This document shows, piece after piece, positions 8,784 through 52,892 of a stretch of 64,000 nucleotides of DNA. The first letter of the stretch is position 1, and the number at the start of each line of letters is the position of its first letter. Source of the DNA: Clostridiales bacterium (GTDB lineage Bacteria; Bacillota; Clostridia; Christensenellales; UBA1242); the NCBI GenBank assembly GCA_015069335.1, contig SVIU01000001.1, positions 1,180 to 65,179 of the forward strand, given 5' to 3'. The notes beneath the pieces were generated by a model, which had not been told where the DNA came from, searched no databases, and saw only the letters and a list, made by a program, of their open reading frames with translations. The position numbers and the translations under genes are program-made.

Positions 8784-9236
8784 TTATCCTAAAATTTCTA
8801 ATATAGCACCCATGGCCGTTTCTGCTTTTTTGTTGTCTGGAAAATAAATCATAACCGAATCATCTCCACAACAAGCCCCCATAACTTCAACAAGGTTGAG
8901 TTTATCAACCAAAGAGCAAACTCCCATTGCAAACTGCTTTATTGTTTTTATAACACATACATTTGAAATTGTCTTAACTGAAATGACACACATTTTAAAC
9001 AAATTTATGTTTTTGTTGCTTACACCTTGGTCGCCAGAATCAACAAGAGCATATTTGTATCGACCCTCTGAGCCAAGCACTTTTATAAGCCCCAACTCTT
9101 TAATATCGCGAGAGATTGTTGCTTGTGTAATGTCAAACTTTGCCGCTTTTAATTCGGCAACTAAGTCTTCTTGAGTTTCAATTTCTTTAAGTGATATGAT
9201 TTCTAAAATTTTTGATTGCCTTAGTGAACGAGCCAA
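8784..9236 (-). CDS. argR: Arginine repressor
   Basis: wHTH TQATISRDIKELGLIKV and C-terminal oligomerisation/arginine-binding region (GACCGDDSVMI). TTG start 5 nt after an AGGAGG SD. Conserved argR-recN pair. Confidence 0.9.
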   Translation of the reverse strand: MARSLRQSKILEIISLKEIETQEDLVAELKAAKFDITQATISRDIKELGLIKVLGSEGRYKYALVDSGDQGVSNKNINLFKMCVISVKTISNVCVIKTIKQFAMGVCSLVDKLNLVEVMGACCGDDSVMIYFPDNKKAETAMGAILEILG

Positions 9237-9456: not shown

Positions 9457-9487
9457 CAAAAAAAATTACAGCCGTTTGAACTGTAAT
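9457..9487 (-). terminator. Intrinsic terminator after the OapA-like gene
   Basis: Stem ATTACAG/CTGTAAT (9465-9471 with 9481-9487), followed on the minus strand by an 8-nt T-run. Confidence 0.65.
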
Positions 9488-9502
9488 TTTTTAAATTTGA
9501 TG

Positions 9503-10144
9503 CTATTTTTCTTCTTCACCACTACCCTGCTTGCCAGTTGTTTTGTGGTCTGTTTCTTTTTTTGCAACTTCTTTTTTTTGCTTTCTTGTAAAGATGCTTA
9601 AAATTTTTCCAACTCTAAGAATAATGTTTGTGCAATTGTCGATTGCTCTCCTCTTGCCAAGCGCTTTACCAAAAATTGTTACACCGGCGATAAATGCTGC
9701 AACCAATGATGAGATTAAAATTTTTAAACTTGCATTAGGCAAACCTTCTACAAGTTTTAAGGCAATGCTTGCACCTGCAGCACCACTCAGAATTCCACAT
9801 ACGTCACCTACAACGTCAGCACATAACGATGCAACCTTGTCAGCATTTTTTATTAACTGCAAGCCCTCTTTTGCTCCCCTAACCTTTTTTGATGCCATTG
9901 CAACAAACGGCTCTTTTGAGCAAGAGGTTACTGCCACACCAATCATATCGGTAATTATTGCTATCAAGACAAAAATGACAATGACAATAATTGCTATAAC
10001 AATGTGTGCTACCCCCAGCACCAGTTCTGACAGTATGCTAAAGCAAAGCGATAGCGCCATTGCAATAACAAACACTTTTAAGGGCCAATAATTTTTTATG
10101 TTTTGTTTTTTTACTTTATTATTTTTCCGACTCGGGTTTTCCAT
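9503..10144 (-). CDS. Small four-TM membrane protein, OapA-like (OLE-associated protein A candidate)
   Basis: 213 aa with four predicted TM helices and a charged tail. AAGGA SD 5 nt before the ATG. Sits immediately downstream of the long structured RNA, the invariant position of oapA relative to OLE. Confidence 0.55.
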   Translation of the reverse strand: MENPSRKNNKVKKQNIKNYWPLKVFVIAMALSLCFSILSELVLGVAHIVIAIIVIVIFVLIAIITDMIGVAVTSCSKEPFVAMASKKVRGAKEGLQLIKNADKVASLCADVVGDVCGILSGAAGASIALKLVEGLPNASLKILISSLVAAFIAGVTIFGKALGKRRAIDNCTNIILRVGKILSIFTRKQKKEVAKKETDHKTTGKQGSGEEEK

Positions 10145-10167
10145 AATAATCCTTTTTGTAATATATG

Positions 10168-10204
10168 AATAAAATCTTCTTTTAATGCAATAATTAAAAG
10201 AAGA
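10168..10204 (-). terminator. Terminal hairpin / terminator at the 3' end of the long ncRNA
   Basis: Perfect 11-bp stem TCTTCTTTTAA/TTAAAAGAAGA (10175-10185 with 10194-10204), followed on the minus strand by TTTT. Confidence 0.5.
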
Positions 10205-10797
10205 CTTGATATTAAATAATTAGAAGGCAGTACTTTAAGTAAACCTTGCGACATAGGTTCGGTTGGATTTCCCACTTGATAAGACTTTTTGTCACCAAAA
10301 AGCAGTTTCCTTTTAACCACAAGCAATCACCGAATCGCCACTAAGAGCGCACTATAATCCTTAAAATACAAGACTCATGCATTAGAGTCAACAGCCTAGA
10401 GGTTTTCCCAAACACTATTGTTTGTCCTTAGCTTGTTTTGCAAGTGCTGTTTCAATAACATGATTGCCCATAGGTATGGCCACTACCTTATAGACAACTT
10501 AATACCGCTATATCCCCAAACATTCACTCAAAGCAGGCTACGCTGCACACAATTTTTGTCGTATGCAGGTTCACGCCTAAATGATAAAAGTGCTTATATG
10601 GACTTTCACCAAGATAGGTCTCCACGATAATTGGGGTCAAAGCCATATGCCGTTATGGCCCTCCCAAAAATCTTAACTCTCAGCATCCGCCCCAGTTTGG
10701 GCAACCAAAGCAAACACCAAGAACTTCACAGATGTGCCCGTCGACGCTATAAGACTCGTCTTCCAGACAAACTCCAATGACTAGGATACTGCACCTT
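10171..10797 (-). ncRNA. Large structured non-coding RNA, probable OLE (ornate, large, extremophilic) RNA
   Basis: The 731-nt gap has no credible ORF and is visibly more G+C-rich than its flanks. It carries many local helices, for example 10372-10389, 10543-10568 and 10642-10659. It has its own promoter and terminal hairpin. The synteny nusB-xseA-xseB-[RNA]-[4-TM protein]-argR-recN matches the published OLE/oapA context. Ends are approximate. Confidence 0.6.
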
Positions 10798-10804
10798 CAG
10801 TATT

Positions 10805-10833
10805 ATAATAACACAAAACAATAAAAAAATCAA
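10805..10833 (-). promoter_or_regulatory. Putative sigma-A promoter of the long ncRNA
   Basis: Minus strand reads TTGATT (10828-10833), a 17-nt spacer, then TATTAT (10805-10810). The -35 overlaps the U-tract of the xseB terminator. Confidence 0.4.
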
Positions 10834-10864
10834 GTCTTTTGGTCTTTAAAACAAAACTCTTGAT
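10822..10864 (-). terminator. Intrinsic terminator of xseB
   Basis: Imperfect stem ATCAAG..TTTTGG / ACAAAA..CTTGAT (10829-10864), followed on the minus strand by a 7-nt T-run (plus A-run 10823-10829). Confidence 0.6.
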
Positions 10865-10875
10865 TTTTTTAATAA

Positions 10876-11079
10876 TTATAATTCTTCTTCTTGCAAGCCT
10901 TCAAGGCGTTCTCTAATAACAGTAATTTTGCCTTTTGCCTCATTAAAGCTTTTTAAAAGCTCTTCACATAGCACTGCACCTCTTTCAAAAAGATTTGTAG
11001 CGTCATCAAATTTAACATCGCCGGTCTCAAGTTTTTGTATTATTTGTTCTAACTCTTTTAAATTTTGTTCGTAATTCAT
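10876..11079 (-). CDS. xseB: Exodeoxyribonuclease VII small subunit
   Basis: 67 aa helical protein (LKELEQIIQKLETGDV...LFERG) overlapping the xseA stop by 4 nt. Confidence 0.9.
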   Translation of the reverse strand: MNYEQNLKELEQIIQKLETGDVKFDDATNLFERGAVLCEELLKSFNEAKGKITVIRERLEGLQEEEL

Positions 11080-23097: not shown

Positions 23098-25665
23098 TTA
23101 ACCCCTTTTAATTTCAACCTTTTCATAAATCTCAAAAATATCGCCAACTTGAATGCCATCGCTATCTTTAAGTTTGATACCACATTCGTAACCATAGTTA
23201 ACTTCGGCTTTGTCGTCTTTTTGAATTTTTAAAGCTTCTACCTTGGTTGAAAGAATTTTTTCATCACCACGGAATACATTAACATATGAATTTCTTGTGA
23301 TTTTACCGTCTTTAATATAAGAACCACAAACAACACCAACTGATGACAGCTTGAACATCATTCTTACTTCGCTATGTCCAATTACAACATCTTCATATTT
23401 AACAGAAAGCATACCGTTTAGAGCTTTGGTGATTTCGTCTACGCAATCGTAAATAACTTTGTATGATTTGATTTGAACTTTTTGATTTTCAGCAAATTGT
23501 TCAATTTTGCCGTTTAATTTTAGGTTAAAGTTGATAATTACTGCACTGCTTGCGCCAGCCAAAACAACGTCTGATTCAGTTACAGGGCCTGCTCCGCTGT
23601 GTATGCAAACAACTCTTGCCTCTTCGTTTTTAAGCACTGTTAATGTTTGTTTTAGTGCTTCTACAGAGCCTTGAACGTCTGCTTTTATAATTATATTTAA
23701 AGTTTTAAGTTTACCCTCGTTAACTCTATCCATAAAGTCATCAAGAGATACACCGCTGGTTGCGTTTGCACGCTCTTCTTTGATTTTTGCAATTCTTTCT
23801 TGAATAACTTGCTTACTCATTTTTTCTGAAACGGCGTAAACTTGATCACCAGCATTTGGAACTTCTTCAAGACCCAAAATTGAAACTGGAGTGCTTGGTG
23901 GGGCTGATTTTAATTGTTTGCCATGTTCATCAAACATTGCTCTAACCTTACCAAATGTGATACCACTCATTATACTGTCGCCAACTCTTAAAGTGCCGTT
24001 TTGTACAAGCACAGACGCAATTGGACCTCTGTTTTTGTCTAGTTCTGCCTCAATAACAACGCCAACTGCTGTTTGTGTTGGGTCAGCTTTAAGCTCTTGC
24101 ATTTCGGCAACCAAAAGCACTGATTCAAGCAAATTGTCAATTCCTATGCCTTGTTTTGCAGAAATAGGAACAATTATTGTGTCGCCACCCCATTCTTCAG
24201 GAAGCACACCGTTTTCTGCCAATTGTTGTTTGATTCTATCAGGATTAGCCTCTGGTTTATCCATTTTGTTGATTGCAACAACCATTGGGCAATTTGCAGC
24301 CTTAATGTGATTTATTGCTTCGATTGTTTGAGGCATAATGCCGTCATCAGCTGCAACAACCAAAATTGCAATATCGGTTGCCTTTGCACCCCTTGCACGC
24401 ATTGCAGTAAATGCAGCGTGGCCCGGAGTGTCAATAAATGTGATTTTTTGACCATTCCATGAAACTTGATATGCACCAATTTTTTGAGTGATGCCGCCAG
24501 CTTCGCCACTAACAACATTGGTTTTTCTAATGGCATCTAGTAGCGATGTTTTACCATGGTCTACGTGGCCCATTACAGTAACAACTGGAGGTCTAATTTC
24601 TGCATTTTCGCCAAGTTCTTTAACTTGTTCTTCAAGTTTTTCTTCATATGTTTTTTCGAGTTTTTGCTCTAGTTTTACACCCAATTCTTCGGCAACAAGT
24701 TCGGCTGTTGTAAAGTCTATTGAGCTATTGATAGTTGCCATAATTCCAAGCAACATTAATTTTTTAATGATTTCAGTAACTGGTTTTCCTGTTTTTTCTG
24801 ATAATGTTTTAACTGTTACGTTTTCGGTTGTGATAACAGCGTTTTCAACTGCTGGGGCAACAAAAGTTTGAACATCTTTTTTCTTGCCTTTTACAAGTTT
24901 TCTGCTGCCCATTCTTACGCCGTCGATATCTTCGTTGTAAGAATCCTCAACAATAAAGCCTCTTTTCATAAGAGTTTTTTTGCTCATTTGTTTCTTTTCG
25001 TCATATTGAGATTTTACTGGTGCTTTTTTGCCAGCAAAAGTCTTTTCAGGAACAGCAAATACCTTGCTGCTTTCAAGCGGAGTAAAGCTCTTGAAAGCAT
25101 TGCCTCTGCTTGGAGCAAAAGCATTTGAAGCATTATTCCTTGGAGAAAATGGCCTTTGTTGTTGACCATTGCCGTTTTGACCAAATCTGTTTTGATTGTA
25201 AAATGGTCTTTGTCTATTAAATGGTTGTTGGTTGTTGGTTTGGAAATTGTTGTTATATTGTCTTTGGCCGTTAAATTGTCTGCCATTGTTGCCAAATTGT
25301 CTTTGTTGATTGTTATCAAACCTTTTTGTAAAAGTTTGTTGGTTGCCGTTTTGTTGTCTTGCATTTTTGTCAAAACGATTGTTATTGGATTGAATTTCTG
25401 TTTCTTCAACCAACTCAACTGGCTTGATTTCTTCTGCAATTTCAACCTTTTGAGCCTCTTTGGTTTTTTCGGCTTTTTCTTGTTCGGCTTTTTGATTTTT
25501 TGCGTGTTTAATTTTGGACGCATTTTTAACCAACATTTCTAGTTGACTTTTAGACGACCTAATATCCCTTAATAATTCTTGCAATTCACCACTAACTTGT
25601 ATTTTATGAATTGTTTTTAAGTTGTTTAAACCATTTGTTTTTTCAGTTTTAGTCAATTTGTCCAC
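23098..25665 (-). CDS. infB: Translation initiation factor IF-2
   Basis: G domain [21 protein letters not shown]. The long variable N-terminus contains an N/Q/R/F-rich tract. Confidence 0.95.
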
Positions 25666-25963
25666 TCCTTAATAATTTAACTATTTGTTCGCTTAAACCC
25701 TTGTTTTTTATTGCAAACAACTTGCATTTGTCATTTCCAACCAAAAAATTAAAATCTTCAATTGGCAACATTATAATTTCTGCCTGCTGAGTTAATTGAT
25801 TGATTGTTTTTTGTATTGTCTTTCCAAAGTCTGCCCTATAAACCACCAAATATAACTTATGGGTATAACCTTTTAAATTGTCTGTGCCATAAATTACATA
25901 GCCGGCTCTGTCGGCAAGACCAAAATAATTTTTTGCTTTGTTTAAAATTTGTGTACTAAACAA
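25649..25963 (-). CDS. ylxQ: L7Ae-family RNA-binding protein YlxQ
   Basis: 104 aa in the canonical slot between ylxR and infB. Confidence 0.8.
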   Translation of the reverse strand: MFSTQILNKAKNYFGLADRAGYVIYGTDNLKGYTHKLYLVVYRADFGKTIQKTINQLTQQAEIIMLPIEDFNFLVGNDKCKLFAIKNKGLSEQIVKLLRSGQID

Positions 25964-27955: not shown

Positions 27956-29530
27956 TTATTTGCCTAAATTATCCATTAAACTTAATTTCAAGAACGCTTC
28001 CGCCGTTGCTGTGGCATCATAAAGCGCTCTGTGAGCGTTAGAAAGGTCTATTCCTAGGCTAGCAACAACAGTGCCAAGTTTATAATTAGGCAAGAATAAT
28101 TTATCTTTTGCATCGCCCATACAATCTCTAAACTCATTTTTGAACGACTTGCCTATGCGTTGTGCAGTAAACTGTATAAATTGATAGTCAAACTTTACAT
28201 TATACCCCACCATAACGCTATCGCCAGCAAACAACAAAAAATCCTCTATTATATCTTCGCAATACCTTTCATTTTCTACCATTTGATTGGTTATGCCAGT
28301 GAGTTTTGTAATTTCTTCAGAAATTTCAATGTGAGGCTTGCATAGTGTTTGGAATACTTGTGTGATTTTACCGTTTTCAATTTTTACTGCACCTATTTCA
28401 GTGATGTCGTTTTTGTCTGGAATTAGACCAGTAGTTTCAACATCAAACACAACCCACGATTTTTCTGTAATCCAGCTTGGATAAGCAACATTATCATCAT
28501 TAAACATATTGTCTTGATATTGTTTTTTGTAAGGCAACGGCTTTACATATTGATATGTAGTTCTATCTTGAATTTCTGGTTGCGGGGTTTCAACTTCTTC
28601 ACTTTGTACTTTTGTGCAAAGAGAAATGCTTTTTATCATATATTGCATTGTTCCATTATCGCGCTTGACATAATTGCCTAAACACAAAATATGTGTGCCA
28701 TCTTCAACCAAGCCAAAGTGTTTTTGAGATGCCTTTGTGCAAAAATGAACACAATCTACAGCACCAGTGCTGTCACTGAGTTTAAATTTGTACATTTTTA
28801 GTTTTTCATCAATGCCTTTTTCTTTGTGTTTGCGAGGCAAATATTCTCTTTGTTCCAAATTTGAAACATTGCCAGCTAATATCAAAGAAAATTTTTCACC
28901 TACTTGCCCATTGATATACTCTGGCATTGGAAGAATTTCGCTACCAAAAAGTTTGTTAACATTTTGCACGTTATAACGCGGAGTTTTTGCATTAACCTCT
29001 AAGGTTGATTGAATATCAATTGCACGTTGCTCAAGCATTTGCTCATCAAATTGATTAGAGTTGTCTAACTTTGCATCAACAATAAACTCGGCACAAAAGT
29101 TGTGGCACAAATATGTTTTAAGGTGATGACAGAAATCATTGTTTTTTATATATTGCAAAATTGTTTGATTTACATTAAAAATAAGCTCAATTACAAAATT
29201 ATTTCTGCTGTATGAAATATCGTTGTTTGATATTAAAGTAGAAAGCGAGTCAAATTCCTCGCCTAAAAACTCTTTTATTTTTGACTTAACAATATTTTCA
29301 TCCAAAAAACTCTTGTTGAATTTGCAAACTATTCTGCCATTTATGTTTAAAATTTCGGCAACTGCTGTTTTGATTTCAGTCTTTTGCTCGTCGGTTAAAA
29401 TTGGCAAATTTTCGGGATAAATAAAGTTTATTAAACATACTGAAAAAGTGGTATCATATACCACTTTTAAAACTTTTAAAAAATCATACTTTCCATTTAA
29501 TTTTTTTGATAATTCTTTAGTAAAATCCAT
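27956..29530 (-). CDS. PolC-like N-terminal/OB/3'-5' exonuclease protein lacking PHP and polymerase modules
   Basis: C-terminal DnaQ-type exonuclease with near-PolC motifs (VVFDVETTGL, KLTGIT, GYNVKFD, AHRALYDATATAE). A central OB-like segment (KMYKFKLSDSTGAVDCVHF) resembles the PolC OB domain. The ORF stops right after Exo III. It occupies the polC slot upstream of rimP-nusA. Confidence 0.7.
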   Translation of the reverse strand: MDFTKELSKKLNGKYDFLKVLKVVYDTTFSVCLINFIYPENLPILTDEQKTEIKTAVAEILNINGRIVCKFNKSFLDENIVKSKIKEFLGEEFDSLSTLISNNDISYSRNNFVIELIFNVNQTILQYIKNNDFCHHLKTYLCHNFCAEFIVDAKLDNSNQFDEQMLEQRAIDIQSTLEVNAKTPRYNVQNVNKLFGSEILPMPEYINGQVGEKFSLILAGNVSNLEQREYLPRKHKEKGIDEKLKMYKFKLSDSTGAVDCVHFCTKASQKHFGLVEDGTHILCLGNYVKRDNGTMQYMIKSISLCTKVQSEEVETPQPEIQDRTTYQYVKPLPYKKQYQDNMFNDDNVAYPSWITEKSWVVFDVETTGLIPDKNDITEIGAVKIENGKITQVFQTLCKPHIEISEEITKLTGITNQMVENERYCEDIIEDFLLFAGDSVMVGYNVKFDYQFIQFTAQRIGKSFKNEFRDCMGDAKDKLFLPNYKLGTVVASLGIDLSNAHRALYDATATAEAFLKLSLMDNLGK

Positions 29531-29544
29531 TGGTTTTCCTTTTG

Positions 29545-31089
29545 TTAGCCAAATAAATGTATTACGTCAACCAGTATTACGAACGCAAATAATATCATTA
29601 TTCCAATTGCGTGAATCATGTTTTCTACCTTTCGCTTGATTGGCTTTTTGCGAATTGCTTCTATGGTTGTAAATATGACATGTGCTCCATCCAAGCCTGG
29701 TATTGGCAAAATGTTGAATATTGCCAAGTTTGCAGCAAGTAATGGCAATAAATACAAGAAACTTGCAACACCATAAGATGCAACTTCTGTCATTTGTGTA
29801 ATTGTTGAAATAGGACCACCTAATTGGTTGAAGGCTACTGCTCCAGTAATTATGCTCCAGAAGGCTTTTAAAATTAAGCCAGCCAACTCAAATGTAAAAG
29901 GAATAAAATCTCTTAATGCATCACCAAAAGAGTAATTTACTTGAATATAGTCCGCCTCAGAAATTCCAAATTTTGCGTTTCCATCTTTATCGGTGAAATT
30001 TCTGCCAAACTCTACTTCAACTTTGTTTGAATCAATGGCAATTGTGAGTTTTATTGACTCTTTTTCACCAATTAAAGAAGTAAAATCCCTTCCCCTAGCA
30101 TAATTTATTTCTGTACCATCAATTGCATAAACCATTGTGTTTTCTTTTAATGAATAACCATATGTTGTTCCATACAAAAGCTCATCCTCTTGCATAACAT
30201 AACTAAATGATACTGGTGTTTCGCCAACAAGTTCAGCAGTTGGTGAAATGATTAATACATCATAATTGCCTACTAATAAAAATATTAATGAAAAAATAAA
30301 TGCAGACAAAAAGTTAAATGTAACGCCAGCAAAGAACACCAAAATTCTTTTCCATGGTTTTTGATTGTTAAAGCGTCTTGGGTCGTCAGCAGGAATGTTT
30401 TCTAAATTGCTATCACCACCACCAACAATCGCATTTTCGTTTAAAACCTTTTTTGTTTCTGGTGTTGGTTGAGCGTCATTTTTTTCTACCGTATCAGATT
30501 TGTTATCCTCGTTGCTTTCTGCTTTTATGTCAACAACATCTTTATTTTCGGCATCAGTTTTTGACTGCTCTTCCTCGTCGTCACCTTCGCCAAGGAAAGA
30601 ACAAAAGCCGCCGAGTGGGAATAATCTTATAGAAATTTTTTCGCCACGTTTGTTGGTTTTTTGCCACAAAACCTTACCAAAACCAATTGAAAATTCTAAT
30701 ATTGTAAAACCAAGTTTTCTACCAACAATATAGTGTCCCAATTCGTGAATTAACACCATGGTTAATAAAACTATTATTGCAATAATTACGTAAAGAATGG
30801 TAGAGAAAACTGTGCCTACCGTATAAGTAACAAACAACGCATAAAAGGCGTCAAACAAGATTGCAGCTATGCTAATAATTAAGCCTGAAACAGCAAATGC
30901 CTTGATTTTGTTGTGCTCTTTTGTAAGCTTGTTGGCAACAAATGACAATGTGAAAGCAATTCCGGCTGGTATTAAGCCAAATAGTCCAAAAAATATGCCA
31001 ATTACCCAAGCAAAAATTGAAACAGAAAAACCGGCAATTGCAACAATGCCAACTTTCTTTTTATCAATTGTTTTTTTATTATTTTCCAT
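29545..31089 (-). CDS. rseP: RseP/RasP-type site-2 metalloprotease (M50) with extra N-terminal TM module and acidic insert
   Basis: HELGHY, PDZ-like middle and NILPIPGLDG. 514 aa. About 95 extra N-terminal residues with DUF4190-like TM helices. D/E/K-rich insert around residues 168-250. Confidence 0.85.
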   Translation of the reverse strand: MENNKKTIDKKKVGIVAIAGFSVSIFAWVIGIFFGLFGLIPAGIAFTLSFVANKLTKEHNKIKAFAVSGLIISIAAILFDAFYALFVTYTVGTVFSTILYVIIAIIVLLTMVLIHELGHYIVGRKLGFTILEFSIGFGKVLWQKTNKRGEKISIRLFPLGGFCSFLGEGDDEEEQSKTDAENKDVVDIKAESNEDNKSDTVEKNDAQPTPETKKVLNENAIVGGGDSNLENIPADDPRRFNNQKPWKRILVFFAGVTFNFLSAFIFSLIFLLVGNYDVLIISPTAELVGETPVSFSYVMQEDELLYGTTYGYSLKENTMVYAIDGTEINYARGRDFTSLIGEKESIKLTIAIDSNKVEVEFGRNFTDKDGNAKFGISEADYIQVNYSFGDALRDFIPFTFELAGLILKAFWSIITGAVAFNQLGGPISTITQMTEVASYGVASFLYLLPLLAANLAIFNILPIPGLDGAHVIFTTIEAIRKKPIKRKVENMIHAIGIMILFAFVILVDVIHLFG

Positions 31090-31184
31090 ACTAGATTATC
31101 TCCATATAAAACATTAGTTTTGCATACTCGCCGATTATTTAAGCTAGCACGCAAAACCCATGTTATTTATTAAATATATTCGCC

Positions 31185-32135
31185 TTATAGTAAAATTATA
31201 AGAGTAAATATCAACACAACAATAATGTTGGCAAAATGACTGTCAAGTCTATCTAAAACTCCGCCATGACCTGGCAAAATATCACCGCTGTCTTTAACAT
31301 CTGCCTTGCGTTTTAAGAAGCTTTCAAATAAATCACCTGCTTGACAAACAATTGTTGAAACAAGACCAACAATAAGCATTTTCCACCAAGTGATGTTTAC
31401 TTGCTCGAATATAATTCTAAACTTGTCAATTGAGTTGAAAATAAAGAAGATTGCAACTGAACACAAAACTCCCCAAACAATTCCGCCCACAGCACCAGAA
31501 ATGGTTTTTTTAGGGCTGAGTTTTGGGCAAAGTTTTTTGCCTTTAAAGAGTGATCCAGTAAGCATTGCAAAAGTGTCAACAAAAATTGGCACCAAGAATG
31601 CAAAAATCATCAAGAAGAAAGACAATGAACTTGCTGTTGCAGAAATTTTGTCAAAATAATAGGTCATATTTTGCAAGTTATTGATAAAGATAAATGCTAA
31701 AATAATAAAACCTGGGTACAAAAGTCCAAACAATGTTTGAACGCCTTTAAATAGTGAAAATTGCTCAATTGTGCAAGTGATTTTTCTTGTTTTAATTTCG
31801 TTGTCTGAGGCTTTTTTTGAAAGCAAACTAAACAACGACACAACGCCTGCAAGCAAAATCACCAAGGCAATTTGCAATACAAAAACCAAGTATAGTGGCA
31901 AACTTTGGCTTGTGCTTAATTTAAACAAACCATATGCCAAAATTGGGTATGCAAAAATAACTTTTTTGTTGTTGTAATACCCAATTTTTGTAAGTAAATT
32001 TGACATTTCCATGCCTGCCACAACGGCAACAAACACCAAAAATGCGTCAAAAACATAAGGTGTTAGTGTTTTTGTGAAAAATAATAAGATCATAAATGCT
32101 GCCAACGCAACGCCTGTTAATACTCTTTGTTTCAT
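31185..32135 (-). CDS. cdsA: Phosphatidate cytidylyltransferase
   Basis: C-terminal signature SFLKRKADVKDSGDILPGHGGVLDRLDS. Polytopic. Follows uppS. Confidence 0.9.
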   Translation of the reverse strand: MKQRVLTGVALAAFMILLFFTKTLTPYVFDAFLVFVAVVAGMEMSNLLTKIGYYNNKKVIFAYPILAYGLFKLSTSQSLPLYLVFVLQIALVILLAGVVSLFSLLSKKASDNEIKTRKITCTIEQFSLFKGVQTLFGLLYPGFIILAFIFINNLQNMTYYFDKISATASSLSFFLMIFAFLVPIFVDTFAMLTGSLFKGKKLCPKLSPKKTISGAVGGIVWGVLCSVAIFFIFNSIDKFRIIFEQVNITWWKMLIVGLVSTIVCQAGDLFESFLKRKADVKDSGDILPGHGGVLDRLDSHFANIIVVLIFTLIILL

Positions 32136-32836
32136 TTGTTCTCCTGTTTGAGCCCACCAAATCGTCTGTTTCTTTTTTGATAGGCTTTTATTGCTTTTAG
32201 TAATGTTTTTTTGCTAAAGTCTGGCCAATGAGTTTTTGGAAAATAAAACTCACTATAGGCGCATTGATAAAGCATAAAGTTTGACAGCCTTTTTTCACCA
32301 CTTGCCCTAATTATTAAGTCGGGATCAGGCAAATCTGCTGTATATAAATAATTGTGAAAGGTTTGCTCGGTGCACTCTTGCACACCGTCGCTTATTATGT
32401 TGTTTACTGCCCTAACAATTTCAGCCCTTGCTCCATAATTTATGCCAATATTAAAGATTAAAGATTTGTTGTTTTTTGTTGCCTCTTTAATATCAACCAA
32501 AGTGTTTTTTAAAGTGTTTGGAAGCCTTGATAAATCTCCCATTGTTACAACCTTGATGTCAAGCTCATTAAATTTGTCTAGGCTATTGTTGCATAAATCT
32601 TCCACCAAACCAAATATGCCATCAACCTCTTCTTTTGGCCTTGACCAATTTTCTGTTGAAAAGGCATAAACTGATAAATATTTAATGTTTAATTCTATGC
32701 AGGCGCGAACAATTCTTTTTAAGCTCTCCACGCCCATTTTATGACCAAAAAGTCTTGGTTTTCCACGTTTTAATGCCCAACGACCGTTTCCATCCATTAT
32801 CATTGCTACATGCGTTGGCAATTTATTTATTTTCAT
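32132..32836 (-). CDS. uppS: Undecaprenyl-diphosphate synthase
   Basis: HVAMIMDGNGRWA, FSTENWSRP, IRASGEKRLSNF. Confidence 0.95.
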   Translation of the reverse strand: MKINKLPTHVAMIMDGNGRWALKRGKPRLFGHKMGVESLKRIVRACIELNIKYLSVYAFSTENWSRPKEEVDGIFGLVEDLCNNSLDKFNELDIKVVTMGDLSRLPNTLKNTLVDIKEATKNNKSLIFNIGINYGARAEIVRAVNNIISDGVQECTEQTFHNYLYTADLPDPDLIIRASGEKRLSNFMLYQCAYSEFYFPKTHWPDFSKKTLLKAIKAYQKRNRRFGGLKQENK

Positions 32837-33029
32837 TATTCTTGTTCCTTATATCAAATATAAAATCGCCTGTAGTAATAACAGTTTTTTCTTGATCGGT
32901 TGTTATGTTGGTTACAAGCTTTGTATCGCCAGCAACGCTAAAATTATTGTCTTTTATATTAAATTTAATTCCGTTGTTATTAAAATATTCAATAACTTTT
33001 TCTAACTTTTCACCAATAAAATTTTGCAT
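32823..33029 (-). CDS. Small hypothetical protein translationally coupled between frr and uppS
   Basis: 68-aa ORF. Its ATG (33027-33029) overlaps the frr TAA (TAATG) and its 3' end overlaps the uppS start by 14 nt. No recognisable family. Confidence 0.45.
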   Translation of the reverse strand: MQNFIGEKLEKVIEYFNNNGIKFNIKDNNFSVAGDTKLVTNITTDQEKTVITTGDFIFDIRNKNNENK

Positions 33030-33601
33030 TATATTTCCATTATTTCTTTTTCTTTGTCGGCGCTTGCTTTGTCAGCCTTTGCGCACATAGAATCAAGTTC
33101 TTTTTGAACATCTTCTTCTAAACCAGCATATTCGTCCTCAGAAATTTTGCTGTCTTTTTTAAACGCTTTAAATTTGTCCAAAACATCTCTTCTTGCGTTG
33201 CGCATAACAACTTTTGTTTCTTCCAAAAGTTTTTTGGTTTGTTTACAAAGCTCTTTTCTACGCTCTTCTGTCAATGCTGGGAATACAATTCTGATAACTT
33301 TTCCGTCATCAGTTGGATTAACGCCCAAGTCTGCCATTGCAATTGCTTTTGAAATGTTTTTAAGTTGTGAGTTGTCCCACACGCTTACAACTATCATTCT
33401 TGCTTCTGGCACTTGAATGTTTGCCATTTGATTGATTGGTGTCATAACGCCATAATAATCAACCATAACCCTATCCAAAATGTGTGGATTGGCACGACCA
33501 GCTCTAATAATTTGATATTCATCCAACAAATGGTTATAGGCTTTTTCCAATTGTTCTGAATATTCCATTTGAAGTTCTTCTACTTGTTCTTGATTTTGCA
33601 T
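33029..33601 (-). CDS. frr: Ribosome recycling factor
   Basis: 190 aa. IRAGRANPHILDRVMVDYYG and TEERRKEL motifs. Confidence 0.95.
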   Translation of the reverse strand: MQNQEQVEELQMEYSEQLEKAYNHLLDEYQIIRAGRANPHILDRVMVDYYGVMTPINQMANIQVPEARMIVVSVWDNSQLKNISKAIAMADLGVNPTDDGKVIRIVFPALTEERRKELCKQTKKLLEETKVVMRNARRDVLDKFKAFKKDSKISEDEYAGLEEDVQKELDSMCAKADKASADKEKEIMEI

Positions 33602-50776: not shown

Positions 50777-50805
50777 TTGACATTTTATTGCAAAGTTGTA
50801 TACTT
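50777..50805 (+). promoter_or_regulatory. Near-consensus sigma-A promoter abutting the start codon of kinase-like paralog 1
   Basis: TTGACA (50777-50782), 16/17-nt spacer containing TG, TATACT/ATACTT (50799-50805). ATG at 50812 with no SD in between. Confidence 0.5.
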
Positions 50806-50811
50806 TTTTGT

Positions 50812-51816
50812 ATGGAAAAATATAAAACTTTTTTGATAAAAAACATGGTCAAATTTAATGATATAAAGTTGAAACCAGCAAGAGTGTTAAGCTTAGACCA
50901 AGCAACTGGCAGACGCGGCAAAACTGGTGTTTCTTCTAAAACATTTGGGCAAAAGTGGTTTTTGTTGCCCGAGGGCAAGGCTTTGTTTAAAACTTTTGAC
51001 AGCCTTTATGCTCCTAATCTTGCAAATGTTCGTATGCTTAACGAAGTAATTTGTTATAAACTAGCACAGCAGGTTGGTATGCGTTGTGCTCAATATATTC
51101 CCGCACAACTTGAGCATGGTGACAAGCAATATATTGGCCTTGCAACAATAAACATTTTAAAGCCCAACGAAACTTTTGTTTCTTACAGAGATTTTAGAGC
51201 CTTTGACAGCTCTAGCTACAGTTTAAATATGGTTGATTTTGCTCAGCTTATTGATATATATGCACAAAACGGGACAAACATTAAGAAAAAGGCTTTGCTT
51301 GTTGATATGTACAAAAAAATACTTTTTGACGCCATCACCTTGCAAACAGACAGAAATTCTAACAATTATTGCTTAATTAGAAATAAAAAAACAAACACAT
51401 ATCGTGCTTGCCCTTTGTTTGACAACGAATTTGCTTTTGCTTGTGACCTTTTAAATTTTTTTGACTATAATGGTCTTGTTGATTTTAGAGAAATTTCAGC
51501 AAAACATTCAATTGCTAGCAAAATATTTACTGTTGAATATCAATTTGCATCCACAAACAGATATGCAAATTTGATTAAAGATATTTGCTTTTATGCAAAA
51601 AAATACCCACAACTACATTTGGCTTTTAAGGTATTTATGAATAATATAAACATTGAAAAAGTTTTTGATGAATTGACCGCCGAGGGCTATCAAATTAATG
51701 AAGATTACAAAGAATATGTTTGCGAAATTGTAAACCAATCCAAGCATTTGCTTGCCGAAGCCTTTAAGGTTAAGGTGCCAGCCCATGCCCTTGAAGAAAT
51801 AGAAAGAATATTTTAA
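50812..51816 (+). CDS. HipA/HipT-like kinase-fold protein, paralog 1
   Basis: 334 aa from MEKYKTF. TGVSSKTFGQKW (Gly-rich loop-like), LQTDRNSNNY (cf. HipA D-x-H-x-x-N catalytic loop), CPLFDNEFAF (cf. HipA ..P.YD). The ORF-track start at 50788 is a TTG inside the promoter. Confidence 0.5.
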   Translation: MEKYKTFLIKNMVKFNDIKLKPARVLSLDQATGRRGKTGVSSKTFGQKWFLLPEGKALFKTFDSLYAPNLANVRMLNEVICYKLAQQVGMRCAQYIPAQLEHGDKQYIGLATINILKPNETFVSYRDFRAFDSSSYSLNMVDFAQLIDIYAQNGTNIKKKALLVDMYKKILFDAITLQTDRNSNNYCLIRNKKTNTYRACPLFDNEFAFACDLLNFFDYNGLVDFREISAKHSIASKIFTVEYQFASTNRYANLIKDICFYAKKYPQLHLAFKVFMNNINIEKVFDELTAEGYQINEDYKEYVCEIVNQSKHLLAEAFKVKVPAHALEEIERIF

Positions 51817-51855
51817 TCAAAAAAATTTCCTTTAACTAACTTCAATTTTATATGC

Positions 51856-51884
51856 TTGACAAAATTAATACCAATGTGTATGCT
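51856..51884 (+). promoter_or_regulatory. Near-consensus sigma-A promoter abutting the start codon of kinase-like paralog 2
   Basis: TTGACA (51856-51861), 17-nt spacer ending TGTG, TATGCT (51879-51884). ATG at 51891 with no SD. Confidence 0.5.
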
Positions 51885-51890
51885 TTATGC

Positions 51891-52892
51891 ATGGAAAGAA
51901 AAAAGATATTTTTTTTAAAAAATATAAAAATGTTTAACTTTATAAGACTAAAACCAGCTCGAATTTTAAGCATGGACCAATCAGTTCGCCGAAGAGGAAT
52001 AACCGGTGTGTCTTCTAAAACCTTTGGTAGAAAGTGGTTTTTTATGCCTGAAGGAAAGGCTTTGTTTAAAACATTTGATGGTAGTTATTCTTCTAGCATA
52101 GCAAACATCAGAATGTTAAACGAAATTATTTGTTATAAATTAGCAATGCAAATTGGCATTAGTTGTGCCCAATACATTCCCGCAAACCTTGTCAATCATG
52201 GAAAAAATTATGTTGGCCTTGCTTCTGTTGACATTCTACAGCCAAACGAAACATTTGTTACATATAAAAGTTTTAGGAAAATTCCCGGCTATGACTTTGG
52301 ATTCAATTTAGTTGATTTTTCTCAAATCTTAGATATATATGTGCAAAACGGTGTTAAAATAGATAAACAAGAAATGCTTTTAGATATGTATCAAAAAATA
52401 TTATTTGATGTTATTACATTTCAAACAGACAGAAACATAACAAATTATTGCTTAATAATAAATAAAAAAAACAAATCTTATAGACCATGCCCACTATTTG
52501 ATAATGAATTCGCCTTTGCTTGTGATTATTTAGACACTTTGGACAAACCTTTTATTGATTTTTCTGATATTGTTTCCACGCATTCGTTATTTAGCAAAAT
52601 TTTTACAATAGAATATGAATTAGCTTCTAGTAAGCGATATGCCAACATAATAAGTGATATTTGTTTTTTGGCTAAAAAATATCCCGATATGAATTTAATT
52701 TTAAAAAATACTATGAAAAATTTAAATATAGAACAAGTTTTTTGCGAATTAAAAAATGAAGGCTATGAAATCAATGACGATTATATAACTTATGTTTGTG
52801 AATTAGTTAATAAAGCCAAGGAAATGATTGCAGAAGCTTATAAAATTAAAATACCTAAACAAGAACTTCAAGAATACGATAGAATAAGTTAA
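51891..52892 (+). CDS. HipA/HipT-like kinase-fold protein, paralog 2
   Basis: 333 aa from MERKKIFF. Collinear with paralog 1 along the whole length, with more than half the positions identical by eye. Same three motifs (TGVSSKTFGRKW, FQTDRNITNY, CPLFDNEFAF). Confidence 0.5.
   Translation: MERKKIFFLKNIKMFNFIRLKPARILSMDQSVRRRGITGVSSKTFGRKWFFMPEGKALFKTFDGSYSSSIANIRMLNEIICYKLAMQIGISCAQYIPANLVNHGKNYVGLASVDILQPNETFVTYKSFRKIPGYDFGFNLVDFSQILDIYVQNGVKIDKQEMLLDMYQKILFDVITFQTDRNITNYCLIINKKNKSYRPCPLFDNEFAFACDYLDTLDKPFIDFSDIVSTHSLFSKIFTIEYELASSKRYANIISDICFLAKKYPDMNLILKNTMKNLNIEQVFCELKNEGYEINDDYITYVCELVNKAKEMIAEAYKIKIPKQELQEYDRIS

What the first reader, a model, noticed from the sequence alone, without database searches (positions are those of the whole stretch)
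10145..10875. ~630-nt structured RNA between xseB and a 4-TM protein: OLE-class RNA plus OapA in a stripped-down context
Seen directly: the 731-nt gap between xseB and the next CDS has no credible ORF. It is visibly richer in G+C than its AT-rich flanks. On the minus strand it is organised as an independent RNA gene.
- The xseB terminator lies at 10822-10864.
- A TTGATT-N17-TATTAT promoter lies at 10805-10833.
- The body carries many short G/C helices: GACTC-N8-GAGTC at 10372-10389, CTGCACAC/GTATGCAG at 10543-10568 (one G-U pair on the minus-strand RNA), and GCCATA-N6-TATGGC at 10642-10659.
- It ends in a perfect 11-bp terminal hairpin plus U-tract at 10168-10204.
- An SD and ATG for a 213-aa four-TM protein follow immediately.
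Established knowledge: OLE RNA (~610 nt, Puerta-Fernandez et al. 2006) occurs in anaerobic and extremophilic Firmicutes. It sits inside the nusB-folD-xseA-xseB-ispA-OLE-oapA-dxs-...-argR-recN block and is always followed by oapA, a small four-TM protein. Position, size and partner all fit here.
Inference: this is an OLE/OapA ribonucleoprotein locus, but the isoprenoid genes that normally bracket it (ispA, dxs) are absent. That makes it a useful natural test of the proposed OLE-isoprenoid link. I could not align to the OLE consensus from memory, so a different large RNA class remains possible.
Basis: partly seen in the sequence, partly recalled or inferred. Interest (0 to 1): 0.6.

Follow-up and report, generated by a model that had tools for sequence, protein, structure and literature searches.

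The report
OLE RNA with OapA, lacking P13
The gap between xseB and the small membrane-protein gene encodes a genuine OLE RNA followed by its partner gene oapA; it is a correct call of a known RNA family in a gut Clostridia lineage whose OLE has lost the OapB-docking hairpin and whose gene block lacks five of the usual neighbours.

Summary
The observation and the main interpretation hold. Window 10813-10208 (minus strand) matches Rfam OLE (RF01071) end to end: 358 bits against a threshold of 50, E = 1e-101. The 213-aa protein downstream is OapA by five tests:
- It has four hydrophobic segments.
- Its DxxxD motif is conserved.
- It has the weak CNNM similarity typical of OapA.
- Its predicted fold matches only CorB/CorC.
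- It is 39% identical to the protein at the oapA position of the classical Clostridium argentinense OLE locus.

1. This OLE lacks P13, the primary OapB-binding hairpin. So do about 70 related species, and the remodelled junction shows covariation.
2. The block lacks folD, tlyA and nadK as well as ispA and dxs. This pared-down arrangement is the norm in a large radiation of uncultured gut and rumen Clostridia, so it is not special to this genome.
3. dxr is also missing from its usual cdsA-rseP slot.

Published surveys already describe P13-less OLE variants and variable ole neighbourhoods, so this is a new member of a known kind and of modest interest.

The parts
10822..10864 (-). xseB intrinsic-terminator-like hairpin. 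Its descending arm contains the -35 element of the OLE promoter.
   Evidence: It folds at -14.7 kcal/mol (z = -3.9), and no shuffle folded as well.
10805..10833 (-). OLE promoter: -35 TTGATT (10833-10828), a 17-nt spacer, and a TG-extended -10 TATTAT (10810-10805). The predicted start is near 10798.
   Evidence: The consensus scan found it. The same layout recurs in relatives 9-14 nt before GGUGCAGUAU, whatever gene lies upstream. The start site is inferred.
10208..10813 (-). OLE RNA (RF01071), full-length match. The P13 hairpin is absent at about 10325-10330.
   Evidence: cmscan gives 358.2 bits, E = 1.3e-101, model positions 1-616 of 616. The 19-nt interior of the model's P13 hairpin is replaced by 1 nt.
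10172..10207 (-). Hairpin downstream of OLE (15 bp, one G-U pair) followed by UUUUAUU. It is probably a leaky terminator or 3' stabiliser.
   Evidence: It folds at -13.6 kcal/mol (z = -5.2). Similar hairpins occur in many relatives but not all. Its function is inferred.
9503..10144 (-). oapA: a 213-aa protein with four hydrophobic segments and DVVGD at residues 110-114. The Shine-Dalgarno sequence AAGGA is at 10154-10150.
   Evidence: The supporting results are.
9460..9492 (-). oapA terminator-like hairpin with a U-run.
   Evidence: It folds at -14.7 kcal/mol (z = -4.2).
10876..11079 (-). xseB, the upstream neighbour.
   Evidence: It matches Pfam PF02609 and TIGR01280.
8784..9236 (-). argR, the downstream neighbour. 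The classical order places dxs, tlyA and nadK between oapA and argR.
   Evidence: It matches the Pfam Arg_repressor domains.

Best explanation
This is an OLE RNA gene with its partner gene oapA.

Shown:
- The RNA has the full OLE architecture except for P13.
- It has a conserved promoter of its own.
- oapA encodes a CNNM-like protein with four hydrophobic segments and the DxxxD motif.

Inferred:
- Transcription starts near 10798, from an extended -10 promoter that overlaps the xseB terminator.
- Most transcripts end at, or are stabilised by, the hairpin at 10207-10172, giving an RNA of about 630 nt.
- The hairpin ends only about 27 nt before the oapA start codon and no promoter lies between them, so oapA must be expressed by read-through. 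This would give more RNA than oapA mRNA.

By analogy with Halalkalibacterium halodurans (established knowledge, not tested here), the RNA should bind an OapA dimer at the membrane. There it would act in stress adaptation and Mg2+ homeostasis.

P13 is the primary OapB site. Because it is missing, the P12.2/P13/P14/P15 four-way junction becomes a three-way junction, and the particle presumably works without OapB docked at that site.
For: RNA identity:
- Full-length RF01071 hit: 358 bits, E = 1e-101.

Linkage of the RNA and the protein:
- 72 related loci have enough upstream sequence to judge. In 70 of them an OLE lies upstream of the OapA homolog on the same strand.

OapA identity:
- D110 and G113 are invariant, and D114 is at least 90% conserved.
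- 62 of 82 homologs match Pfam CNNM, and no other family comes close.
- An AlphaFold model (pLDDT 78) has only CorB/CorC structures as its top six matches in the PDB. The best is 7M1T_A, with TM-score 0.52 and 3.4 A rmsd. Below these six, the match probability falls to 0.15 or less.
- The protein is 39% identical (E = 4e-41) to the protein at the oapA position of the C. argentinense locus ispA-OLE-oapA-dxs, whose OLE scores 523 bits.

Expression signals:
- The promoter is conserved in position across the clade.

P13 loss:
- The segment between AGUGG and UAAAAGGAAAC is 20-23 nt in the window and in nearly all relatives. It is 39 nt, with a GNRA hairpin, in L082 and L077.
- The P13-less 3' domain covaries: 88.5% of cells are paired against 40-46% in slid controls, and 24 of 38 pairs show compensatory changes.
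Against: - There are no transcript data, so both RNA ends and the read-through model are inferred.
- The 3' hairpin is weak (two G-C pairs), was missed by the terminator scan, and is not universal among relatives.
- Whether oapB or oapC exists elsewhere in this genome is unknown. P14.1 keeps a GNRA loop, which is the reported weak second OapB site (PMC7936274).
- I made no direct comparison with H. halodurans OapA.
- Function is carried over from one model organism.
Confidence: 0.9

Rival explanations
1. The OLE sequence acts here mainly as a long structured 5' leader of the oapA mRNA, a cis-acting element, and not as a separate stable RNA.
For: The hairpin ends about 27 nt before the oapA ATG with no promoter in between. 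Several relatives have spacers of only 13-40 nt and no hairpin. OLE and oapA must therefore share a transcript at least part of the time.
Against: In H. halodurans, OLE is an abundant discrete RNA that binds OapA in trans (PMC12265935). Some relatives, such as L082, have a strong terminator followed by a separate promoter for oapA. In L052 the two genes are convergent. The RNA therefore does not need to be in cis.
Confidence: 0.08
2. The locus is a decaying OLE relic. On this view the loss of P13 and of the neighbouring genes marks a system on its way out.
For: P13 is essential for OapB binding and OLE function in H. halodurans (PMC7936274). Two relatives, L026 and L067, keep oapA but have no OLE.
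Against: The P13-less form is retained in about 70 species, with invariant core nucleotides and compensatory changes. The promoter is conserved. oapA is intact with its motif conserved. The Rfam score is seven times the threshold.
Confidence: 0.03
3. On the meaning of the context: ispA and dxs are missing because the lineage has lost the MEP pathway altogether. If so, OLE function does not depend on those enzymes.
For: ispA, dxs, folD, tlyA and nadK are absent from the 64-kb window. dxr is also absent from the conserved uppS-cdsA-[dxr]-rseP slot, where cdsA and rseP are only 95 nt apart. The pared-down block is the norm in this clade.
Against: uppS is present, so the cell still needs IPP and FPP. 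folD and nadK are normally indispensable yet are also gone from the block, so relocation elsewhere in the genome explains the pattern equally well. Only 64 kb of the genome was seen.
Confidence: 0.35

Closest known systems
Full-length OLE RNA (RF01071), as in Halalkalibacterium halodurans and Clostridium argentinense
   Same: It matches the same covariance model end to end, keeps the same conserved core sequences, and is followed by oapA in the same way. The flanking order nusB-xseA-xseB ... argR-recN-spoIVB is also the same.
   Different: It has no P13 hairpin. The block lacks folD, ispA, dxs, tlyA and nadK. Its score is lower, 358 bits against 523.
OLE 'variant 1' of Fernando and Breaker 2024 (commonest in the TANB77 gut clade)
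   Same: The host is an uncultured gut anaerobe. The OapB site in P13 is missing. The score would fall in the 310-390 bit band.
   Different: Variant 1 is defined with the authors' own model and has shortened P7-P9. Here the RNA is 606 nt even though it lacks P13, so there is no net shortening elsewhere. Named relatives are placed in or near Christensenellales. Whether this clade is TANB77 could not be determined.
OapA (OLE-associated protein A)
   Same: It lies directly downstream of OLE. It has four hydrophobic segments, the DxxxD motif, weak CNNM similarity and a CorB-like fold (PMC11332333).
   Different: It has long basic N- and C-terminal tails. Binding to OLE and dimer formation were not tested.
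MpfA/CorB/CorC CNNM-family Mg2+ transporters
   Same: The transmembrane fold is shared: the top six PDB matches are 7M1T, 7M1U, 7CFG and 7CFF.
   Different: There are no CBS or CorC_HlyC domains. The protein is 213 aa against more than 400. It carries the DxxxD motif, which CNNM domains lack (PMC11332333).

Membership tests
OLE RNA (RF01071) | Covariance-model score above the curated threshold over the whole model | tested here: met
   The score is 358.2 bits against a gathering score of 50, covering model positions 1-616 of 616 without truncation.
OLE RNA (RF01071) | Conserved base-paired architecture supported by covariation | tested here: met
   The 3' domain (P12, P12.1, P14, P14.1) was tested in 67 distinct sequences. 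88.5% of cells are paired against 40-46% in slid controls, and the covariation score is 0.43 against 0.10-0.17. P12.2 never varies, so it gives no information. The other helices were judged only from the cmscan alignment.
OLE RNA (RF01071) | oapA immediately downstream | tested here: met
   This holds in the window and in 70 of the 72 related loci that could be evaluated.
OLE RNA (RF01071) | P13 hairpin with a GNRA loop and a one-nucleotide bulge (the primary OapB site). This is a feature of the full-length class, not of every OLE. | tested here: not met
   The 19-nt interior of the model's P13 hairpin is replaced by 1 nt. The bracketing segment is 21 nt here, against 39 nt in L082 and L077 and in C. 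argentinense.
OLE RNA (RF01071) | K-turn-forming nucleotides flanking P5 (the OapC site) | tested here: inconclusive
   The window has GGGCACAUCUGUGAAGUUC and GCUGAGAGUUAAG, close to the consensus. I could not map the k-turn residue by residue without the published figure.
OLE RNA (RF01071) | Membrane-associated ribonucleoprotein; abundant stable RNA | not testable with these tools
   This needs transcript and localisation data.
OapA | Small membrane protein with four transmembrane helices | tested here: met
   Hydropathy shows four hydrophobic segments. The AlphaFold model has helices at 20-45, 48-74, 101-132 and 138-169.
OapA | DxxxD motif | tested here: met
   DVVGD lies at residues 110-114. 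D110 and G113 are invariant, and D114 is at least 90% conserved in 82 homologs.
OapA | Weak CNNM (PF01595) similarity and a CorB-like fold, without CBS or CorC domains | tested here: met
   The window protein scores 19.6 bits, below the gathering score of 28.4. 62 of 82 homologs match. The top six PDB fold matches are all CorB or CorC. No other domain was found.
OapA | Homology to the oapA gene product of a classical OLE locus in a cultured species | tested here: met
   The protein is 39% identical over 181 aa (E = 4e-41) to the C. argentinense protein that lies between OLE and dxs.
OapA | Similarity to H. halodurans OapA (BH2780); binding to OLE RNA | not tested
Binding needs an experiment.
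OLE 'variant 1' (Fernando and Breaker 2024) | Bit score of 310-390 with the authors' model; shortened P7-P9; OapB site often missing | tested here: inconclusive
   The Rfam score of 358 falls in the band, but it comes from a different model. The OapB site is missing. The total length of 606 nt argues against shortened stems. The helix names could not be mapped with certainty.

The most novel reading that the evidence does not exclude
A large radiation of uncultured gut and rumen Clostridia may run a minimal OLE-OapA particle. In this lineage the RNA has lost P13, the OapB docking hairpin. The ancestral block has also lost folD, ispA, dxs, tlyA and nadK, and dxr is missing from its conserved slot. 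If these genomes truly lack the MEP pathway and OapB, then OLE function does not depend on dxs/ispA or on OapB. The core machine would then be the RNA plus OapA, perhaps with ArgR, whose gene is now the direct neighbour.
Probability: 0.25. Interest if true: 0.45.

Novelty: new member of a known kind. Interest (0 to 1): 0.27.

Why it matters
OLE is one of the largest bacterial RNAs whose biochemical function is still unknown, and its gene neighbours are used as clues to that function. This locus adds no new kind of element. It does show that, in many species, OLE and oapA persist together under selection without P13 and without five of the usual neighbours. It therefore supports the published view that OapA is the one indispensable partner. 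It also cautions against reading the isoprenoid neighbours as a necessary functional link. If the lineage proves to lack the MEP pathway and OapB, it would be a convenient natural minimal system for study.

Tried and rejected
- A profile search of the OapA family against PDB sequences found nothing, even at E = 10. Only fold comparison showed the CorB relation.
- The first AlphaFold model, built from 17 sequences, reached only pLDDT 61. It gave the same top hits with weak scores and was replaced by a model from 82 sequences.
- NCBIfam has no model that matches the protein.
- Three papers were not held: the 2006 discovery paper, Block 2011 and Harris 2018. Breaker 2023 has no PMC copy. I therefore could not obtain published neighbour frequencies.
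- One literature search, on ispA/dxs, returned only metabolic-engineering papers.
- The supplement of the 2024 survey that is held as text has no per-species classification.
- The 104-aa ORF in the ylxQ position has no L7Ae match, even at E = 0.05. No candidate K-turn binder was found in the window.
- The idea that the insert in the nearest relatives would be ispA was wrong. It is proS.
- A different large RNA class is ruled out, because OLE is the only Rfam hit in the whole window.

Full report
**Observation.** The region between xseB (11079-10876) and the next gene (10144-9503), all on the minus strand, holds only two short mechanical ORFs that overlap the RNA. It is richer in G+C than its surroundings: 41.4% for the RNA against 32.8% for the window, up to 48% in its 5' half, with flanks at 28-31%.
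- The xseB terminator hairpin lies at about 10822-10864 (-14.7 kcal/mol, z = -3.9).
- The promoter TTGATT-17-TATTAT lies at 10833-10805 with a TG extended -10.
- Each of the three named internal helices coincides with a helix of the Rfam consensus.
- The 3' hairpin lies at 10207-10172 (15 bp, z = -5.2). It is followed by a U-rich run, a Shine-Dalgarno sequence and the ATG.

**Identity of the RNA.** A scan of the whole window against all of Rfam gives one hit. It is OLE (RF01071) at 10813-10208 on the minus strand, with 358.2 bits against a gathering score of 50, E = 1.3e-101, covering model positions 1-616 of 616.

**Identity of the protein.** The 213-aa product has no NCBIfam match and only a sub-threshold Pfam match to CNNM (19.6 bits). 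That is the published signature of OapA. Fernando and Breaker 2024 report that OapA proteins form the next-best cluster against PF01595. They also report that OapA proteins carry a distinctive DxxxD motif, and that the H. halodurans OapA model best matches CorB (PDB 7M1U) (PMC11332333). The results here agree on every point.
- The protein has four hydrophobic segments and DVVGD at residues 110-114.
- D110 and G113 are invariant, and D114 is at least 90% conserved in 82 homologs.
- 62 of those 82 homologs match CNNM, and no other family comes close.
- An AlphaFold model from the 82-sequence alignment (pLDDT 78, pTM 0.67) has six CorB/CorC structures as its top PDB matches. The best is 7M1T_A, with TM-score 0.52 and 3.4 A rmsd over 141 columns. 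Below these six, the match probability collapses.
- A profile search of 1.84 billion representative proteins finds 1,319 clusters, almost all of 180-260 aa.
- One of those clusters contains a 191-aa protein of the cultured species Clostridium argentinense. Its locus is the textbook arrangement: spoIIIAH, asp23, nusB, folD, xseA, xseB, ispA, a gap, this protein, dxs, tlyA, nadK, argR, recN, spoIVB. The gap holds a 523-bit OLE.
- The window protein is 39% identical to that protein over 181 residues (E = 4e-41).

I could not obtain the H. halodurans sequence, so that particular comparison was not made.

**Related loci.** A scan of one genome per species with the OapA alignment returned 80 loci. 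All come from uncultured gut or rumen Clostridia, and the named ones are placed in or near Christensenellales. Of the 72 loci with enough upstream DNA, 70 have a full-length OLE upstream on the same strand. The exceptions are L026 and L067, which have no OLE at the Rfam threshold.

In the cmscan alignment, the small hairpin between P12.2 and P14 is replaced by one nucleotide. In L082 and C. argentinense the same model positions are filled by a GNRA-capped hairpin with a one-nucleotide bulge. This is P13, the primary OapB-binding site and one arm of the four-way junction P12.2/P13/P14/P15 (PMC7936274).

The distance between the conserved AGUGG and UAAAAGGAAAC landmarks is 20-23 nt in the window and in nearly all relatives. 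It is 39 nt in L082 and L077, and 35 nt in L060, which has a non-GNRA hairpin there. The P13-less 3' domain is under structural constraint in 67 distinct sequences. 88.5% of cells are paired against 40-46% when partners are slid. The covariation score is 0.43 against 0.10-0.17, and 24 of 38 pairs show changes on both sides. P12.2 never varies, so it gives no information. P14.1 keeps a GNRA loop.

Loss of the OapB site is already described for OLE 'variant 1', and OapB and OapC are reported absent from some OLE-bearing gut clades. The window's score would fall in the band that defines variant 1, but that band was set with a different model. At 606 nt the RNA shows no net shortening elsewhere.

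**Gene context.** Compared with C. argentinense, the window keeps spoIIIAH, asp23, nusB, xseA, xseB, OLE, oapA, argR, recN and spoIVB in order. It lacks folD, ispA, dxs, tlyA and nadK. None of these is found anywhere in the 64 kb, using probes from two species.
- Among the 80 related species, only L082 has the full classical set, and L077 has dxs next to oapA.
- 21 loci match the window on both sides.
- Upstream of OLE, among 61 evaluable loci, xseB or xseA lies directly upstream in 21, xseB followed by proS in 8, ispA in 1, and something else in 31.
- Downstream of oapA, among 55 evaluable loci, argR follows in 36, dxs in 1, and something else in 18.
- A locus whose OapA is only 51% identical has the same order over 16 kb.

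The 'stripped-down' context is therefore real, but it is the norm for this radiation and is not specific to isoprenoid genes. The literature says dxs 'often' lies next to ole (PMC10898510) and treats the neighbourhood as a statistical association across 730 species (PMC12265935).

**A second missing MEP gene.** Elsewhere in the window, the block frr, uppS, cdsA, rseP lacks dxr. From my own knowledge, dxr sits between cdsA and rseP in Bacillus and Clostridium. Here the two genes are 95 nt apart, while uppS is present. This hints that the lineage may lack the MEP pathway. However, folD and nadK, which are normally indispensable, have also left the OLE block, so relocation is an equally good explanation. 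Only the full genome can decide.

**Expression model (inferred).** The promoter layout recurs across the clade: -35 TTGAnn, a 17-18 nt spacer, and a TG-extended -10 that ends 9-14 nt before GGUGCAGUAU. It is present whatever gene lies upstream, whether xseB, proS, ispA or another. This supports an independent transcription start near 10798.

The 3' hairpin ends about 27 nt before the oapA start codon with no promoter between them, so oapA must be read through. Comparable hairpins are common among relatives but not universal. Some relatives, such as L082, have a strong terminator followed by a separate oapA promoter. I therefore propose a leaky terminator or 3' stabiliser that yields more RNA than oapA mRNA.

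The function is taken from H. halodurans and was not tested: a membrane-bound OLE-OapA particle that aids adaptation to alcohol, cold, Mg2+ and poor carbon sources.

**Verdict.** This is a correct identification of a known RNA family and its partner, in a lineage already covered by a published GTDB-wide survey. The added value is a clearer description of the clade's state: loss of P13, a five-gene reduction of the block, OLE's own promoter, and the missing dxr. Interest is modest.

Noticed in passing
window 29545-33601 (minus strand): The conserved block frr, uppS, cdsA, rseP lacks dxr. cdsA and rseP are only 95 nt apart, and uppS is present. proS and polC, which follow rseP in Bacillus, are also absent. 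In their place is a 524-aa protein with an RNase_T exonuclease domain (27956-29530).
   Followed up: partly
L004-L011, L026, L060, L067 (between xseB and OLE or oapA): In the window's nearest relatives a prolyl-tRNA synthetase gene occupies the slot between xseB and OLE, and it is of two different types in sister lineages. One is about 570 aa with an editing domain (L004, L008, L010, L011, L060, L067). The other is about 473 aa with ProRS-C_1 (L005, L006, L007, L009, L026).
   Followed up: partly
L026:516-2191 and L067:8184-10001: Two species have xseB, proS and oapA but no OLE at the Rfam gathering score anywhere in the locus, so oapA is left without its RNA.
   Followed up: partly
L052:152-1418: A full-length OLE (380 bits) lies on the opposite strand just downstream of oapA, convergent with it, where the usual position is upstream on the same strand.
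   Followed up: no
L077:1-150, L082:6463-6627, L060:9698-9859: The only loci with a hairpin at the P13 position form one small OapA subclade. The two with a canonical GNRA P13 (L077, L082) are also the only ones with dxs next to oapA. This counts as a single lineage, so it is a hint and not a correlation.
   Followed up: partly
window 25649-25963 (minus strand): A 104-aa ORF lies between ylxR and infB, where Bacillus has the L7Ae-like K-turn binder YlxQ. It has no Pfam match, even at E = 0.05.
   Followed up: partly
window 50788-52892 (plus strand): Two adjacent ORFs of about 345 aa each have a weak, sub-threshold HipA_C match. They are among the very few genes on the plus strand in a window that is otherwise almost entirely minus-strand.
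   Followed up: no
L085:4773-5954: In C. argentinense an IS605-type tnpB gene is inserted between xseA and xseB, inside the classical OLE gene block.
   Followed up: no
L063:9201-10001: An unusually long spacer of about 740 nt separates OLE from oapA in this relative.
   Followed up: no
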